This document shows, piece after piece, positions 1 to 9,000 of a DNA stretch of 14,748 nt. A program made the position numbers. The stretch covers positions 1-14,748 of the forward strand of contig CAZTOS010000059.1 of NCBI GenBank assembly GCA_964615185.1, read 5' to 3'. Source of the DNA: an uncultured Thermococci archaeon (GTDB lineage: Archaea > Methanobacteriota_B > Thermococci > Thermococcales > Thermococcaceae). The first letter of the stretch is position 1. Each line of letters begins with the position of its first letter.

Positions 1-3000
1 TTGCTTTAGAATCCCCCGCATCCCCACCCCAAGGCTTTCAAAAGAAAAAAGTAACCGTTCTACCTACCCGTTGTTTTTCTGACCTAACCCAGACAACTAC
101 GTTCAAGAGCTCGAACTTTTTATTATATCCTAAGGCACAATCAGCGCCCTCTACTGGAACTTCTCAGATTGCCATGAAAGCCTGTGGGATAAACTTCCAT
201 TTGACAATTTGGTATTCTCGGAAGTGATGGAAGCCCGAAACCAGCTGCATTTGTTCTAAAGGAATTTAAGGAAAAATAACAAGCCTTAAAAGAACTGAAT
301 ATGTTCCCATTAACGTTCCCAAAAACGACTACGAAAAACCTAAAGAGAATTTAGTCAAGTTATATAAGGAATTCCTCAGAAAAATAAGGAGGTAACCATG
401 TATGAATTACAGATTTCCTCCACGTTATGGCCCTGAATGGGGAAGTGGTGGGATTTTTGGCTTAAGATACCACAACGAAGTTCTTTATTTCACAGTTGCA
501 TTTGAAGCGGAAGCCCATTTTGTAAAAGAAGATTCACACAGAATTTACGAATTTGAGCTGGTCGGTGGAAAACCGACATCTGGAGGAGACACATACAATG
601 CCGTCGATGTTGTCGATGAGTTCATTTACTTTGGAGGATGGGTTCATGCTCCTGCAGTATATGAGGGAAAAGGAAATGAAAAAGCAACAATAAATTTTGT
701 CAACAAATACTCCCATGTGCATGAATACGATACTGAAAATGACTCTATACGCTTAGTGTGGAAGGAATCTATTCATCATCCAACAGATTGGGCTGGGGAG
801 GTCAGTGATATAATCTACAATCCCTACACTGATGAACTGTTGCTGGCAAGAGAAGATGGGCATCAAAACCTTGGAATATACGCTTTGGACAGAAAAAAGG
901 GTAAGATAAAACTGCTCAATTCTGCTCCAAGTCCAAAAGGGACTACAGTTCATGATACAGCATTTTTTGGTATTGGAAAAAACTTCACAAAGGGCCTTGA
1001 AGAAATTCATGCCTTGGACATGATTACCGAAAGATGGGAGAGATTCCCACTTGGAGAAAGTGTCGATGGACATCCCTATCTTTACCCTCATATTGGGGCA
1101 ATGGGCAGTGCATACAACAGAGCATTTGCCTTTGTGAGAGGAGGTCTTTTTGTAGGAAACCCACTTAACGATGAACCATTTGAGTTTTTCAGGCTCTTTG
1201 ACTTCTACACCTTCTATGCCCCTTTCAGGGTCAATGCACTCCCCTTAGATGGAGGGCTGCTGATAGCATACAACGCACACCATGATGGCATTTATAAGCC
1301 GAGAACCCCCGAAGAAATGAACTTTGCAAAGTTAACAAACACGATAGTTGGACCAAGTGTTTTGGTTTACATATCCCCACCTATGATTAAGATAGTTGGA
1401 AGTTTTGGTGCAAGGATTACAAGCATGGAAAAAGCCAAAGGAAAGCTGTTGCTCGGTACAAATACAACACCAAACACGGGTGCACTTGATGCGACACCCT
1501 TCGACACAGGCAACAAAGACATAGTTATCCTTGATGAAAAAATACTGCAAGAAAAACCACCTGCAGTTGCCTTTTCCGTGCCTTTGACATATCCATTACT
1601 GGCAATGCAGAAGGGAGGAGGGACATTTGGAGGAATTCCTCTTGATGGATACAAAAATCCCCGCATAATTATCTATGCATCAAAAGACAACGAACTAACA
1701 ATTTATGAATATGACCTTACACTGCCTCCTACTGATGCTTATTCTGACAAATTCGACATCAAAAAGGGTAAAAATATAATTGAACTGCAGTCATTTAGTG
1801 GAATAGTTTCTTTTAGGCTTAAAGAAGAAGATTTCCGGGGGAGAGTTAGAATCGAGCTTAAGTAATAATTCCATGGTGATGCACAATGATATTTTCAATA
1901 GGTGAAGTCCTTATAGATTTTATAGCAAAAGAAGAAGGTCCACTAAAAAAAGTTAGCACCTTTGAAAAACACGCCGGGGGAGCACCAGCTAACGTAACCG
2001 TAGGACTGGCAAGACTAAAAACCCCCACAGCATTAATAAGCAAAGTTGGAGCAGATCCATTTGGCGAATTTTTAGTTGAGCAGCTGGAAAAAGAAGGTGT
2101 GAAGACAGATTACATAAGGTTTGACAAGGAGAAACATACCGGCGTTGTTTTTGTTCAACTAATCGGTGCCAAGCCAGAATTCATCCTCTATGATGGAGTT
2201 GCATACTTCAACCTGGAAATTGACGACATAGATTTTTCTTTCCTCGAAAAAGCATCCTTGCTTCACTTTGGAAGTGTTCTATTTGCAAGAGAACCAAGCA
2301 GAAGTACTGTCTTTGAAGTGATTAAGAAAGCAAAGGGCAAGATCCCAATAAGCTATGATGTAAACATACGCCTTGATTTATGGCGTGGAAGAGAAGATGA
2401 CATGATAAAAGATATTGAAAAGGCCTTAAGTTTTGCAGAAATAGTAAAAATAGGTGATGGAGAACTGGCATTCTTAGAAAACCATGGAGTAGACCTGGAG
2501 AATTTCGACTTTAAGCTCATGGCAGTAACAAAAGGCGAAAAAGGAAGCGAAATGATACATAGAGGAATCAAAGTTAAGATTTTGGCACACAAAGTTGAGC
2601 CCGTGGATACAACAGGAGCTGGAGATGCTTTTATGGCAGCACTTTTATCAGCTCTATGGTATATGGGGAAGCTCAAACATCTTGAGCTGAATGAAGAGGA
2701 ACTGCTAAGGGTTGGCAGATTTGCAAACCTTGTTGCTGCGCTTTCTACACTGAGGAGAGGAGCATGGAGTGTTCCAAGAGCTGAAGAACTGAAAGAATAC
2801 AAAGAGGCAAGAGAAGTACTTATTCGGAGAGAACTTCCCCTATGACATTCCTCCAGCTCATGCTGGAATTTACAAGCTCATCTATTGTTATCTCTTTTTC
2901 TTCAACAATCTGGGGCGCCCATTGATTCAGCACTTCTAAAAGCTTCTTTTTTGAGGTCTTTTCTTCATCGAAAACTATCATACCTGTTTTTGAATATCCA

Positions 3001-6000: not shown

Positions 6001-9000
6001 TTGGTTATCCAAACAACTCCATTTTTCTCCCATACCACAGCGGGCACAACTTTCCTTGTCTCTGGACAGAGAGAATATGTTCTATGCGGCAATGAACCAC
6101 CATAGCCTTTGCTTGCTTTTGTGAGTAATTCCCGAAATTCCTCTTCACTTAATTCGGGATACTCAATGATATCGCGAACTTTTTTGGTGAGTTCACCAAA
6201 CTCTCTCTCACCACTTGGAATTTCACCCGTAATTTCAGCCATTTTAATCACCTCTGGTGTTAGATTACCCGAAAGGGTATAAAAACTTTTGCGTAAATAT
6301 GAAGATTTACTTGCATAGGTATGGACGAAGGTTAGAGTTAAATATGCTCAGAAGACATGTTAAAGTTGGAGGGTAGAAAATGCCAGCAAGAGAAATGAGA
6401 ATGGAGATGTTTTTGAGAGCATTGATGAGAAGGGATTTTAATAAAGCTAAATCACACCTTGAAAAGCTTACAAAAATGGTAGGAAACGATGAATGGGGAA
6501 GAGGATATACAAAAGCCATAAATGGTTTTATATCAGCACTAAAAGATAATGACACTGATGCATTAATAGTCCAGCTTGTGAAGGAAGTGAATCATGAAAG
6601 AGCTAAGCAACTCCTATTGCATTTTGAGGAAATACTAAACCACGAATTCAGAGATGAATATGAAAAGGGATATTATACAGCATGGATCGAGCTTTTAAGA
6701 GCTTATCTAACACAAAGAACTCTGGGTGTTAGGCGTGGCAAAAGACGAACTCATGAAAAAGCTTGAAGAAAAAATAAAGAACTGCAAAAAATGTCCATTA
6801 GGTATGTTGAGAACAAATGCTGTTCCCGGCAGCGGGAGCTATGATGCAGATGTGATGTTTGTTGGCGAAGCTCCAGGGTACTGGGAAGATCAAAAAGGCT
6901 TGCCTTTTGTTGGAAGGGCTGGAAAGGTCTTGGATGAACTTTTAGCTGAAATTGGCTTGAAAAGGGAAGATGTGTATATTACAAATATTGTAAAATGCCG
7001 TCCCCCCAATAATAGAGACCCCAATGAAGATGAGATCAAAGCCTGCTCTCCATATTTGGATAGACAGATTGACATAATTAGACCCAAAATAATTGTCCCC
7101 TTAGGAAGGCACTCCATGAGCTACATTCTCAGAAAGTTTGGGTTTGAACCCGAGCCGATAAGCAAAATACATGGAAAGATTTTTGAAGCAAGAATCCTTT
7201 TTGGAAGAATCATAATAATGCCAATGTATCATCCGGCAGTAGCTTTGTACAGACCCCAGCTTAAGGAGGAGCTGAGGAGAGATTTCAAAAAGCTAAGGGA
7301 AATTCTGGATAATGTTTAGGGTTTACTTTTGTCAAATATCTTCGAATACTTTTCTTTGTTAAACACTTGCTTTAAACTTTTTTCGTTATTTGTCTAATTT
7401 AATATAGCCTTTTAGGGAAAAATTTTTATAAAAAGAACTCGCTAATGTTACTGATGCTACATCATAATACATAGACATTCACAAACGTCCAGAAAGGTTC
7501 AGAAAAGATCATTTAAGAACCTCCAATAAACCTCGATAAAATTTCGAAAATAAATAGAATGACAAAAATTTTTCCGAAAACTTTATATACATACCGAATA
7601 ACGAATGTCTGCAAATTTAAGATGGAGGTGTTGATTGATGGCAGACTTCGGTGTTTTATCTCTGCTACCACCTCTCGTAGCTATTATACTGGCTATATGG
7701 ACAAAAAGGGTTATACTGGCACTGTTTGCAGGTGTCTGGATTGGTGGAGTAATGGTTTCAGGATGGAACCCAGTGACAGGAACTGTCCAGACATTGGACT
7801 GGATAGTGGGAAATGCAATTGATGATTGGAACGCAAAAATTCTTCTGTTCGATTTCCTGATTGGTGCTGGTGTTGGCTTGATATATAAATCTGGAGGAGC
7901 AAATGCAATAGCAAGGGCTTTAACAAAGACAGTAAGAACAAGCAGAGCAGCGTCACTAATGGGATGGCTTTTGGGAGTTCTGGTGTTCTTTGATGACTAC
8001 ACAAACACAATTATCGTTGGTAACACCATGAGACCACTCACAGATAAAGCAAGGGTCTCAAGAGAAATGCTGGCATATATAGATGACTCAACTGCTGCCC
8101 CAGTGGCTGGTTTGGCTTTGGTTTCGACATGGATTGGTTATGAGGTTGGTCTGATTGGAGACTCATTCAAGGATTTGGGGATAAGCTTAGGACCTTACGC
8201 TGCATGGCTTTCAAGTGTCCCATACAGATTTTACTCAATCTTCGCAATTATTCTGGTGTTCCTTGTTGCTTACACTCACAGGCACTACGGGGCAATGCTT
8301 CACGCTGAGTATAGGGCAAGAACAACCGGAAAGGTTCTCAGAGATGGTGCAAAACCTCTGATGACAACTGAAATCGATCTCGGAATGCCAAAAGAAGGCG
8401 GAAATGTTCACACATTCATATGGCCAATACTAACACTCGTCTTTATAACACTTTATGGAATGTGGGTTACCGGAGGAGGCAGCAAAACATATGCCTCAGA
8501 TGGCCTAATGGGAGTGCTTTCAAACTCTGATCCTGCTTTAGCCCTTCTCTGGGGAAGCTTTGCAATGGTCGTTGTGGCATTCTTCCTGGTGCTCGGGTTC
8601 AAAATAATGACAGTAGAAGAAGCAGAGACCACAATAGTTCAAGGTATGAAGCAGATGATTATTGCAAACACGATATTGCTCTTAGCCTGGAGCATTAAGA
8701 GCGCAACTGATGCTGTTGGAACTGCTCCATATGTTGTTGATTTAGCACAAAGAGCCGGTATCAGTGCAGGAATTGTGCCATTAATAATCTTCTTAGTTGC
8801 AATGTTCATCTCATTTACAACTGGAACATCATGGGGAACCTTCTCAATAATGATGCCAATAGCAATTCCCCTTGCCTATCACTTAAGTGGACAAGCAGGT
8901 CCAGTGCTTTTCGCATCAATTGGTGCAGTTTTTGCCGGAGGTATATTTGGTGATCACTGTTCACCAATCAGCGATACAACAATCATGAGTTCGATGTTCT

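What a model noticed while it worked through the whole genome (the two positions that open the first line are those of the whole stretch)
2820..6242. DUF3213 (PF1455-family) protein is a predicted small subunit of the tetraether lipid synthase Tes
g01899 (C59:2820-3113, 97 aa, Pfam DUF3213, no assigned function) lies 9 nt downstream of, and co-directional with, the intein-containing radical-SAM tetraether lipid synthase Tes (g01900, C59:3123-6242). The pairing is conserved across Thermococcales and a controlled complex prediction places DUF3213 with high confidence on Tes, across the N-terminal Zn-ribbon/CPFDCGLC region and the C-terminal domain. DUF3213 is therefore proposed to be a lineage-specific accessory subunit of the GDGT-forming enzyme.
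Evidence so far: NCBIfam names g01900 'tetraether lipid synthase Tes, intein-containing'. neighbours.tsv: DUF3213 next to Zn_ribbon_HMPTM in at least 71 of 98 Thermococcales genomes and in 75 of the 81 genomes (of 199,903) that hold both families (0.926); DUF3213 in 88 of 98 Thermococcales, 97 Archaea, 0 Bacteria. Complex prediction with Tes N-extein (1-155) + C-extein (609-1039) + DUF3213, own alignments A2/A1: ipSAE 0.86/0.84/0.79 (median 0.84) against best of 3 controls 0.10; the mark was reached by 116 of 157 solved complexes and 2 of 215 mismatched pairs; runs agree in at least 60% of contacts, partner pLDDT 80-81. Interface residues of DUF3213 (16-41, 77-83) include the family's invariant D21 L22 Q23 Y [...]
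(Added by a program. Inside this text positions count along the whole contig: contig position 1 is position 1 of the stretch shown here. "Call 12" and the like, gene names such as g00115 and contig names such as C1 are that model's own, and its searches are not shown. The text may have been shortened before it was handed on; [...] marks where a part breaks off. The agent that wrote the report below was given it as the finding of a first reader that could run no searches.)

Follow-up and report, generated by a model that had tools for sequence, protein, structure and literature searches.

The report
Small partner protein of tetraether synthase
A 97-residue protein of unknown function is always encoded directly behind the enzyme that makes archaeal membrane-spanning lipids and is predicted to clamp onto one of that enzyme's iron-sulfur sites, which would make the enzyme a two-protein machine in several archaeal groups.

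Summary
A 97-aa DUF3213 gene (2820-3113, minus) lies 9 nt behind the intein-containing tetraether synthase gene tes (3123-6242), and the tes stop codon sits inside the DUF3213 ribosome-binding site. All 94 of 99 Thermococcales genomes that hold DUF3213 have it directly behind tes.

A new complex prediction used an intein-free, single-chain Tes of a congener and its own DUF3213. It passed: ipSAE median 0.81, best control 0.01, but one of three runs scored 0.00. DUF3213 is placed on the rubredoxin-like knuckle, the N-terminal [4Fe-4S] loop and a C-terminal segment of Tes.

The protein has a heavy-metal-associated (HMA) fold but no cysteine or histidine.

"Lineage-specific" is wrong. Divergent homologues sit directly behind tes in a sister family (3 of 3 assessable loci). 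They also follow tes in 70 of 80 Tes loci from mostly Micrarchaeota-labelled genomes, where the protein is longer (about 200-236 aa).

Partner-less Tes enzymes exist and are active alone in published work, so the partner is accessory, not catalytic.

No paper found links DUF3213, PF1455 or TK2146 to Tes. Binding is predicted, not shown.

The parts
2820..3113 (-). DUF3213 gene, 97 aa plus stop: a cysteine-free and histidine-free HMA-fold protein, the proposed Tes partner
   Evidence: PF11491, 88.6 bits. Model with pLDDT 81 and a beta-alpha-beta-beta-alpha-beta core. HMA fold matches. dN/dS is 0.04-0.27.
3114..3125 (-). tes stop codon TGA (3123-3125) fused to the Shine-Dalgarno-like GAGGTGAT (3124-3117), then a 3-nt spacer before the DUF3213 ATG: a translational-coupling junction
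   Evidence: In 47 orthologous junctions, 41 have an SD-like word and 29 have the stop fused to it. The stop-to-start gap is -8 to +31 nt in 50 loci.
3123..6242 (-). tes, the intein-containing radical-SAM tetraether lipid synthase (1039 aa)
   Evidence: NF045703, 2099 bits against a cut-off of 1700.
5778..6242 (-). Tes N-extein (aa 1-155): rubredoxin-like knuckles, the [4Fe-4S]N loop and the first two Cys of the radical-SAM motif
4419..5777 (-). LAGLIDADG intein (aa 156-608). It is inserted before the third Cys of the radical-SAM CX3CX2C motif, starts with Cys, and ends with Asn followed by Cys+1.
   Evidence: Intein_splicing, LAGLIDADG_3, intein_Nterm, intein_Cterm.
3126..4418 (-). Tes C-extein (aa 609-1039): the rest of the radical-SAM core and the C-terminal cluster domain, including a segment of the predicted partner interface
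   Evidence: The interface residues come from the ortholog model.
5841..5873 (-). Tes aa 124-134, the C-x3-C-x2-C-x2-H motif that binds the N-terminal auxiliary [4Fe-4S] cluster: the centre of the predicted docking site
   Evidence: Sequence. Ligand assignment by alignment to 7TOL and by passages of PMC9433317. Lowest-error contacts.
5985..6068 (-). Tes aa 59-86, the rubredoxin-like knuckles. They are degenerate here: the first knuckle ends in T and the second in G, where other Tes have Cys and His.
   Evidence: the window and 20 of 20 Thermococcaceae Tes. The comparison set is the other Tes and MJ0619.

Best explanation
DUF3213 is the short form of a wider, so far unnamed family of cysteine-less HMA-fold proteins. 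It occurs in the window's family (Thermococcaceae in common usage; the scan codes it f1) and in one sister family. These proteins are made together with Tes from one bicistronic message and bind it about 1:1 as a non-catalytic accessory subunit.

Shown:
- The gene order.
- The coupled junction between the two genes.
- Purifying selection on the gene.
- The HMA-like fold.
- The lack of any metal ligand.
- Homology to tes-linked proteins in other lineages.

Predicted:
- Helix alpha-1 (invariant Q23-Y24), strand beta-2 (R34, F36, N38-Y40) and the C-terminal S-x-S-W-x-N tail dock on Tes. The tail is disordered in the model of the protein alone.
- The docking surface on Tes is made of the rubredoxin-like knuckle, the loop that binds the surface-exposed N-terminal auxiliary [4Fe-4S] cluster, one radical-SAM-domain helix and a C-terminal-domain segment.

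Inferred: because the partner has no redox cofactor, it most likely caps and stabilises this exposed cluster region, or controls access of the electron donor to it. It does not take part in the chemistry. In Thermococcaceae it may compensate for a rubredoxin site that has lost two of its four ligands. The long Micrarchaeota-type form adds helices and a basic, aromatic C-terminal tail that may reach the membrane.
For: Linkage:
- DUF3213 is directly behind tes in 94 of 94 Thermococcales genomes that hold it. Three incomplete genomes lack both genes.
- The stop-to-start gap is -8 to +31 nt, and the stop codon lies within the SD.
- In T. kodakarensis the supplement tables of PMC4247193 list a primary TSS for TK2145 and none for TK2146. 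Read counts of the two genes track each other in five libraries.

Homologues behind tes elsewhere:
- Sister family f3: 3 of 3 assessable loci.
- Non-Thermococcales Tes loci: 70 of 80 on the same strand, plus 1 nearby on the other strand.
- hhalign: A1-A4 98.9%, A4-A6 98.8%, A1-A6 86%.

Binding model:
- ipSAE was 0.00, 0.88 and 0.81 (median 0.81) against a best of 3 controls of 0.01.
- The mark was reached by 116 of 157 solved complexes and 2 of 215 mismatched pairs.
- The runs agree in at least 2% of contacts, and partner pLDDT is at least 67.
- My own alignments were used, so the counts hold only roughly.
- No like complex is solved: the PDB holds only the Tes monomer 7TOL/7TOM and PF1455 alone, 2F40.

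Conservation and loss:
- Thirteen of 19 conserved DUF3213 residues, and 5 of 5 invariant ones, lie in the predicted interface; 5.7 are expected, p 1.2e-4.
- The Q-Y pair is invariant in all three families. It is predicted to touch Tes N123 and F126.
- N123 is kept in 20 of 20 and 70 of 71 partner-bearing Tes and replaced in 5 of 5 partner-less ones.
- The one Thermococcales genus without the partner has a Tes that lacks the whole cluster-binding motif.
Against: - No experiment shows binding.
- One of three complex runs scored 0.00.
- Interface placement by a predictor is not independent of conservation.
- A systematic scan found 9 Tes columns that separate partner-bearing from partner-less Tes. 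Only 1 lies in the predicted interface (p 0.41). Only 7 of 33 interface positions are conserved between the two partner-bearing clades, against 187 of 583 overall.
- M. jannaschii Tes is purified as a monomer and is active alone (PMC9433317, passages).
- Maeo_0574 or MA_1486 alone gives GDGT in M. maripaludis (PMC8941075, passages).
- A tk2145 transposon mutant was complemented by TK2145 alone (PMC6393311, passages).
- TK2146 is absent from the AP-MS tables of PMC12016516, where Tes appears only as prey.
- DUF3213 evolves 3-8 times faster than Tes by dN/dS.
- The related genomes are few independent lineages.
Confidence: 0.58

Rival explanations
1. DUF3213 is a transient maturation factor. Its HMA fold is a metallochaperone fold, and it docks on the cysteine loop of the N-terminal cluster only while Tes is being folded or loaded with iron-sulfur clusters. 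It then leaves, so it is not a stable subunit.
For: The HMA fold is the fold of metallochaperones that dock on Cys-rich metal sites through the same helix face (fold matches; the docking habit is recalled, not tested). The predicted contact is centred on the cluster-binding loop. Translational coupling suits a co-translational helper. Tes enzymes without it work, so the mature enzyme does not need it.
Against: The protein has no Cys or His and no conserved metal ligand, so it cannot carry iron or a cluster. The near 1:1 coupled expression and the large, confident interface (80 contacts under 8 A error in the best run) look more like a stable partner. Sequence cannot tell stable from transient.
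Confidence: 0.15
2. DUF3213 acts in the same pathway as Tes, in tetraether membrane formation or its regulation, without binding Tes. It could, for example, bind a lipid, a small ligand or another membrane protein.
For: Conserved gene order shows functional linkage, not contact. The ferredoxin-like fold also occurs in small ligand-binding regulators: AsnC-type domains appear lower, at Z 6.2-7.5. The long form has a basic, aromatic tail ending in a conserved K-G-F-W-F-H-G motif that could bind membranes by itself.
Against: The controlled complex prediction passed with a margin of 0.80 over controls. The family-wide invariant residues are surface residues in the predicted interface. The partner is lost together with the Tes cluster motif in genus g7.
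Confidence: 0.15
3. DUF3213 is a passenger gene with an unrelated function, such as an antitoxin as one automatic JGI label says. It merely shares the tes transcript.
For: One cluster representative carries the automatic name 'antitoxin component of RelBE/YafQ-DinJ'. DUF3213 is much less conserved than Tes: 33-76% against 82-90% identity.
Against: There is no toxin partner gene. The only family match is DUF3213. Adjacency to tes survives divergence to about 20-25% identity across distant lineages. Each genome has a single copy, next to tes.
Confidence: 0.04

Closest known systems
PF1455 of Pyrococcus furiosus (PDB 2F40) and Pfam DUF3213 (PF11491)
   Same: Same family. The window protein matches 2F40 at E 6e-16 and the Pfam model at 88.6 bits. 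The DUF3213 read from L003 is letter for letter the P. furiosus protein.
   Different: The solved structure is of the protein alone and carries no function. Public names are 'DUF3213 domain-containing protein' or 'hypothetical protein'. The link to Tes is not in any paper my searches found.
Heavy-metal-associated (HMA) domains: MerP, Atx1/HAH1/CopZ, and the metal-binding domains of ATP7B/CopA
   Same: Same beta-alpha-beta-beta-alpha-beta fold. VIA-align gives Z 9.3, rmsd 1.9 A over 69 residues to 6a71_A, and the top 19 rows are all HMA domains. Foldseek TM reaches 0.76. The bridging profile A4 hits genuine CxxC HMA proteins at E 4e-7 and 3e-5. The face used for docking, helix alpha-1 and its neighbours, is the one HMA chaperones use (recalled).
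   Different: There is no CxxC motif and no Cys or His at all. Pfam HMA does not match the window protein. The predicted target is a radical-SAM enzyme, not a metal pump or another HMA domain.
GDGT-MAS / Tes of Methanocaldococcus jannaschii (MJ0619, PDB 7TOL/7TOM)
   Same: Same enzyme family (E 9e-144), with the same four-domain plan: rubredoxin-like, [4Fe-4S]N, radical-SAM core and [4Fe-4S]C (PMC9433317 passages; PMC13459092 passages).
   Different: It is purified as a monomer and is active without a partner. The Pfam DUF3213 model rings in none of the 14 control genomes, which include M. jannaschii. It has the full C-x2-C...C-x2-H iron site that the window's Tes has lost. It has G where partner-bearing Tes have N123, and it lacks three residues in the 523-525 segment.
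Small accessory proteins of other radical-SAM enzymes, such as Dph3/Kti11 with Dph1-Dph2 and PqqD/RRE with PqqE (recalled from memory, not tested here)
   Same: A separate small protein docks on a radical-SAM enzyme and serves electron delivery or substrate presentation rather than the chemistry.
   Different: Dph3 carries its own redox-active metal site, and PqqD has a different fold and binds a peptide substrate. DUF3213 has no cofactor ligands, and Tes acts on lipids.

Membership tests
Pfam DUF3213 (PF11491) | Score over the curated gathering cut-off (27 bits) | tested here: met
   88.6 bits, E 3.2e-25, covering profile positions 2-85 of 85.
Pfam DUF3213 (PF11491) | Small stand-alone protein, never a domain of a larger one | tested here: met
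   All 21 of 21 representative clusters with E <= 0.001, out of 1.84 billion proteins, are 37-104 aa. The more divergent long forms (200-236 aa) fall below that search's reach.
HMA (heavy-metal-associated) domain superfamily | beta-alpha-beta-beta-alpha-beta ferredoxin-like fold of about 70 residues | tested here: met
   Model m915a8b1cf3fc (pLDDT 81). VIA-align Z 9.3, rmsd 1.9 A over 69 aligned residues, with the top 19 rows all HMA. Foldseek best E is 1.8e-3, TM 0.76.
HMA (heavy-metal-associated) domain superfamily | Metal-binding C-x-x-C motif in the beta1-alpha1 loop | tested here: not met
   The 97-aa protein has no Cys and no His. None is conserved in 47 orthologues.
HMA (heavy-metal-associated) domain superfamily | Match to Pfam HMA (PF00403) | tested here: not met
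   No match at E <= 0.001 for the window protein. The distant relative P0141 reaches only E 0.066.
Tetraether lipid synthase Tes (NCBIfam NF045703 / NF045702) | Score over the curated cut-off | tested here: met
   NF045703 gives 2099 bits against a cut-off of 1700. NF045702 gives 691.7 bits against a cut-off of 450.
Tetraether lipid synthase Tes | Radical-SAM CX3CX2C motif | tested here: met
   C149, C153 and, after the intein, C609 as its +1 residue. The motif is whole only after splicing.
Tetraether lipid synthase Tes | N-terminal auxiliary cluster motif C-x3-C-x2-C plus His (C73, C77, C80 and His in MJ0619) | tested here: met
   C124, C128, C131 and H134, aligned to 7TOL. Ligands are as given in PMC9433317 passages.
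Tetraether lipid synthase Tes | Rubredoxin-like iron site C-x2-C...C-x2-H | tested here: not met
   Only C59 and C83 remain. T62 stands for the second Cys and G86 for the His, in the window and in 20 of 20 Thermococcaceae Tes.
Tetraether lipid synthase Tes | Forms GDGT from archaeol-type lipids | not testable with these tools
   Inferred from family membership. T. kodakarensis TK2145 is used as the Tes query in PMC11214058.
Intein with LAGLIDADG homing endonuclease | Splicing blocks, Cys1, terminal Asn followed by a Cys/Ser/Thr +1 residue, and an endonuclease domain | tested here: met
   Intein_splicing, LAGLIDADG_3, intein_Nterm and intein_Cterm match. The intein starts with C and ends with N before C609.
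Stable subunit of a Tes heterocomplex (no curated family exists) | Physical association with Tes | not testable with these tools
   Only a controlled prediction exists: median ipSAE 0.81 against a best control of 0.01. The mark was reached by 116 of 157 solved complexes and 2 of 215 mismatched pairs. The runs agree in at least 2% of contacts, and partner pLDDT is at least 67.

The most novel reading that the evidence does not exclude
A whole clade of tetraether synthases works as an obligate two-protein enzyme. It covers Thermococcaceae, a sister family and the Micrarchaeota-type enzymes. The second protein is a cysteine-less HMA-fold subunit that sits on the N-terminal auxiliary [4Fe-4S] cluster. 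There it sets how electrons enter Tes, either by gating the physiological ferredoxin or by tuning the cluster. In its long form it also tethers the soluble enzyme to the membrane through a basic, aromatic tail. This would explain how Thermococcaceae Tes can do without a complete rubredoxin iron site. It would also give cells a handle to tune the diether/tetraether ratio with temperature.
Probability: 0.22. Interest if true: 0.82.

Novelty: new variant of a known kind. Interest (0 to 1): 0.66.

Why it matters
Tes makes the membrane-spanning GDGT lipids that let archaea live hot and that underlie paleotemperature proxies. The enzyme was found only in 2022. The 2022 structure paper says only that its rubredoxin-like iron and N-terminal cluster "might" tune redox potential and electron transfer (legend seen). 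Its natural electron donor, and how a soluble enzyme reaches lipid tails, are to my knowledge also open.

A conserved partner predicted to dock exactly on that exposed metal region gives a concrete hypothesis. It can be tested by genetics in T. kodakarensis (TK2145/TK2146). It also gives a first function to DUF3213, a structural-genomics orphan (PDB 2F40), and to an unnamed protein family in Micrarchaeota-type genomes. For in vitro work it suggests that Thermococcales Tes should be expressed together with its partner.

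Tried and rejected

- P0139 alone found nothing in genome contigs.
- P0143 in metagenome contigs gave only a 2.7-kb contig cut inside the gene. 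So I could not check whether P0143 and the Tes P0099 are neighbours, although both are reported on a contig of 166,955 bases.
I used 'handles' instead.

**Tests that did not support the reading**
- I looked for Tes columns that separate partner-bearing from partner-less enzymes. Nine were found and only one (N123) is in the predicted interface, so there is no enrichment (p 0.41).
- One complex run scored 0.00.

**Expression**
- RNA runs X1-X4 come from one study of a relative about 86% identical. Each holds one assembled contig that bridges 2702-3590 across the DUF3213-tes junction.
- Contigs cannot show a single transcript or exclude DNA, so this is only a weak hint.

**Proteomics**
- TK2146 is absent from four AP-MS supplement files of PMC12016516, one of them cut when stored. 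TK2145 appears there only as prey of rubrerythrin TK0826.
- TK2145 also appears among the preys of DNA ligase in PMC2962436.

**Ideas rejected**
- DUF3213 as a split-off Tes domain: no fused form among the 21 family hits or in the 80 loci.
- A metal-binding HMA protein: it has no Cys or His.
- An antitoxin: this is an automatic label only.
- A helper for intein splicing: only about 19 of 96 Thermococcales Tes carry the intein, while the partner is in all.

**Tree**
- The Tes tree is the quick tree, because the careful search did not finish. It has a midpoint root, one truncated row was dropped, and the partner-bearing non-Thermococcales rows were thinned to 24 of 71.
- The three-way join of Thermococcaceae, the Micrarchaeota type and Aenigmatarchaeota is unresolved, so it does not settle whether the pair arose once or more often.

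Full report
**1. What is in the window**

The minus strand holds two adjacent genes.
- A 97-aa ORF at 2820-3113 matches Pfam DUF3213 at 88.6 bits, E 3.2e-25, and no NCBIfam model.
- A 1039-aa ORF at 3123-6242 scores 2099 bits on NCBIfam 'tetraether lipid synthase Tes, intein-containing' against a cut-off of 1700.

The intein (aa 156-608, LAGLIDADG type) sits just before the third cysteine of the radical-SAM CX3CX2C motif. That cysteine is its +1 residue.

Nine bases separate the two genes, and the tes stop TGA overlaps the GAGGTGAT ribosome-binding site of the small gene.

The flanking genes are ordinary: DUF2139, a pfkB-type kinase, uracil-DNA glycosylase, a Na+/H+ antiporter, pantoate kinase, DNA ligase, PyrE, an RNA uracil methyltransferase and LrpA.

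**2. Conservation of the pair**

I scanned 99 genomes of the order.
- DUF3213 is present in 94, and in 79 of 80 high-quality genomes. Tes is present in 96.
- Three incomplete genomes (53-80% complete) lack both genes.
- Two genomes of genus g7 have a Tes but no DUF3213.

The coordinates put DUF3213 directly downstream, on the same strand, in 92 genomes. The two doubtful cases resolve in favour of adjacency.
- In G090 the end of tes lies just upstream of DUF3213 at the contig end.
- In G085 the DUF3213 gene is split over two contig ends that overlap by 23 bases. Its first 34 codons follow tes directly.

That makes 94 of 94.

In 50 loci the distance from the tes stop to the DUF3213 start is -8 to +31 nt. 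Of 47 junctions, 41 have an SD-like word and 29 have the stop codon fused to it.

Within the genus, DUF3213 is under purifying selection (dN/dS 0.04-0.27). It evolves 3-8 times faster than Tes (dN/dS 0.015-0.07). Protein identity to the window is 33-76% for DUF3213 and 82-90% for the Tes C-extein.

**3. Published experimental context**

- The DUF3213 read from L001 is letter for letter T. kodakarensis BAD86335.1, and the one from L003 is P. furiosus PF1455.
- In the supplement tables of PMC4247193, TK2145 spans 1923842-1925614 and TK2146 spans 1925625-1925930.
- The same tables list a primary transcription start at 1923816 for TK2145 and none for TK2146. Raw counts of the two genes track each other in five libraries: 154/269/1296/233/60 against 147/277/1347/177/20. 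Files 13-15 were not searched.
- PMC11214058 names TK2145 as the T. kodakarensis Tes (passage).
- PMC6393311 reports a tk2145 transposon mutant that cannot grow at 93 C and is complemented by TK2145 alone (passages).
- I found no paper with DUF3213 or PF11491. PF1455 as a whole word appears only as a primer name, and TK2146 and TK2144 appear nowhere.
- The 2026 review PMC13459092 and a 2026 preprint on Tes do not contain the words accessory, partner or subunit (word searches only).

**4. What the small protein is**

- The 47-sequence alignment has invariant Q23, Y24, R34, N38 and S84.
- Nearly invariant are A19, L26, F36, G39, Y40, F48, D49, L62, P67, E79, L80, S86, W87 and N89.
- The window protein has no cysteine or histidine.
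- The AlphaFold2 model (pLDDT 81) is beta-alpha-beta-beta-alpha-beta plus two short helices. The conserved tail, residues 85-97, is below pLDDT 50.
- The fold is that of heavy-metal-associated domains. VIA-align gives Z 9.3, rmsd 1.9 A over 69 residues to an ATP7B domain, and the top 19 rows are all HMA. Foldseek best E is 1.8e-3, TM 0.76.

It is therefore an HMA-like domain without the metal site.

**5. The family is wider than Pfam shows**

A profile search of 1.84 billion representatives found only 21 clusters, all 37-104 aa, with no fused forms.

The weakest hits, P0137 and P0139-P0143 (about 100 aa), keep the Q-Y pair. A profile of these six (A4) links to DUF3213 by hhalign at 98.9%, E 1.4e-17.

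I scanned the 80 Tes loci that the search for related loci returned for a non-Thermococcales Tes alignment. Most are labelled Micrarchaeota. The A4 profile gave these results:
- In 70 loci it hits the ORF directly behind tes on the same strand, at E 1e-8 to 4e-21.
- In one locus (L106) it hits an ORF 300 nt away on the other strand.
- Two loci (L097, L098) end at the contig edge.
- Seven loci have none: two Aenigmatarchaeota, one Hecatella, two Archaeoglobi and two Micrarchaeota.

One of the two Micrarchaeota genomes without a neighbouring partner holds the partner on another contig.

The Micrarchaeota-type proteins are mostly 200-236 aa, and a few are 116-122 aa.
- They have an invariant Q-Y, a C-terminal helical extension and, in many, a basic tail ending in K-G-F-W-F-H-G.
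- They have no Pfam match.
- Their model (pLDDT 87) again shows an HMA-like core.
- hhalign gives A4-A6 98.8%, E 1e-16, and A1-A6 86%, E 4.9e-6.

The A4 profile also weakly hits genuine CxxC HMA proteins and CopA-type ATPases. This fits descent from HMA domains.

Within the window's own class:
- A sister family (f3) has 82-86-aa DUF3213 homologues directly behind tes in 3 of 3 assessable loci. A fourth is cut by a contig end.
- Families f4 and f5 have Tes but no small partner.

**6. Predicted binding**

I gave the complex tool the intein-free, single-chain Tes of a congener (L031, 583 aa, alignment of 74 rows) and its own DUF3213 (98 aa, 47 rows).
- ipSAE was 0.00, 0.88 and 0.81, median 0.81, against a best of 3 controls of 0.01.
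- The mark was reached by 116 of 157 solved complexes and 2 of 215 mismatched pairs.
- The runs agree in at least 2% of contacts, and partner pLDDT is at least 67.
- My own alignments were used, so the counts hold only roughly.
- No similar complex is solved, so the pass is not recall of a known structure.

The interface on Tes comprises residues 63-65, 112-132, 176-185 and 510-534. On DUF3213 it comprises residues 17-41, 46 and 78-92 in L031 numbering, which is window numbering plus one.

By alignment to 7TOL and passages of PMC9433317, Tes 124-134 is the C-x3-C-x2-C...H motif of the surface-exposed N-terminal auxiliary [4Fe-4S] cluster. Residues 59-86 are the rubredoxin-like domain.

Thirteen of the 19 conserved DUF3213 residues, and all 5 invariant ones, fall in the interface; 5.7 are expected, p 1.2e-4. 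A predictor's placement is not independent of conservation.

**7. Correlated features of Tes**

- The window and 20 of 20 Thermococcaceae Tes have lost the second Cys and the His of the rubredoxin-like iron site. All other Tes compared keep them.
- The two g7 genomes, the only Thermococcales with Tes but no partner, have a very divergent Tes. It lacks the whole N-terminal cluster motif and the 523-529 segment.
- Tes N123 is predicted to touch the invariant Q-Y. It is kept in 20 of 20 and 70 of 71 partner-bearing Tes and replaced in 5 of 5 partner-less ones. M. jannaschii has G there.

Against this, a systematic scan found 9 discriminating columns with only 1 in the interface (p 0.41). The Tes side of the interface is no better conserved between the two partner-bearing clades than the rest of the protein: 7 of 33 positions against 187 of 583.

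In a quick Tes tree, the Thermococcaceae clade, the Micrarchaeota-type clade and an Aenigmatarchaeota pair join in an unresolved three-way fork, apart from Archaeoglobi/Hecatella and g7. The partner-bearing groups are therefore few and possibly share one origin.

**8. Reading**

The most likely account is a non-catalytic accessory subunit, made in step with Tes, that docks on the exposed N-terminal cluster and rubredoxin face. It has no redox ligand, so it cannot carry electrons. A capping, stabilising or access-controlling role is inferred, not shown.

It is not needed for the chemistry in general.
- M. jannaschii Tes is monomeric and active alone.
- Two methanogen Tes enzymes suffice on their own in M. 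maripaludis.

The rival readings are a transient maturation helper, a pathway partner that does not touch Tes, and a passenger gene. Only experiments can exclude them.

**9. Verdict**

The finding is a new two-component variant of a known enzyme, and it gives a candidate function to an orphan family.

Noticed in passing
window 5985-6068 (Tes aa 59-86): The rubredoxin-like iron site of Tes is degenerate in the window and in 20 of 20 Thermococcaceae Tes. The second Cys is T or S and the His is missing, while Micrarchaeota-type, Archaeoglobi, Aenigmatarchaeota, g7 and M. jannaschii Tes keep C-x2-C...C-x2-H. The three sister-family f3 Tes show the same change in the first knuckle.
   Followed up: partly
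window 4419-5777: A LAGLIDADG intein splits the radical-SAM CX3CX2C motif of Tes before its third Cys. About 19 of 96 Thermococcales Tes have an insertion at this profile position (101/102), judged from matches split within one long open frame.
   Followed up: partly
L132 (G001:C29) and L133 (G002:C5): The two g7 genomes have a very divergent Tes-like gene (574-583 bits on NF045702). It lacks the N-terminal cluster motif. A convergent 66-75-aa ORF ending in GG (ThiS/MoaD/SAMP-like by eye) lies just downstream.
   Followed up: partly
L052-L131, e.g. L059:4351-5043: An unannotated family of about 200-236 aa lies behind tes in Micrarchaeota-type MAGs. Each protein has an HMA-like core, a long helix and a basic tail ending in a conserved K-G-F-W-F-H-G motif. 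No Pfam family matches.
   Followed up: partly
G128:C10:26206-29205, also G111 and G115: Sister lineages of the same class carry two Tes copies each, in G128 in tandem, and no small DUF3213-like partner.
   Followed up: no
G060:C5:13057-13308: One genome has a second DUF3213 copy 120 bases from a contig end, besides the copy behind tes on C56. It may be an assembly duplicate or contamination.
   Followed up: no
window 2820-2845: The 3' ends of the DUF3213 gene (minus strand) and of the convergent pfkB-type sugar kinase gene (1886-2845, plus strand) overlap by 26 bases.
   Followed up: no
window 6380-6766 (+) and 6307-6555 (-): Two ORFs without any Pfam or NCBIfam match lie between tes and the uracil-DNA glycosylase gene. 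The plus-strand ORF overlaps the glycosylase start.
   Followed up: no
literature, T. kodakarensis TK2145: Tes (TK2145) appears as prey of tagged rubrerythrin TK0826 in sulfur-free cultures (supplement of PMC12016516). It also appears among the preys of tagged DNA ligase TK2140 (PMC2962436). The ligase gene lies five genes away, as it does in this window.
   Followed up: no
cluster of L001 protein (P0151): A JGI record names a DUF3213 cluster representative 'antitoxin component of RelBE/YafQ-DinJ toxin-antitoxin module'. Nothing else supports this label.
   Followed up: no
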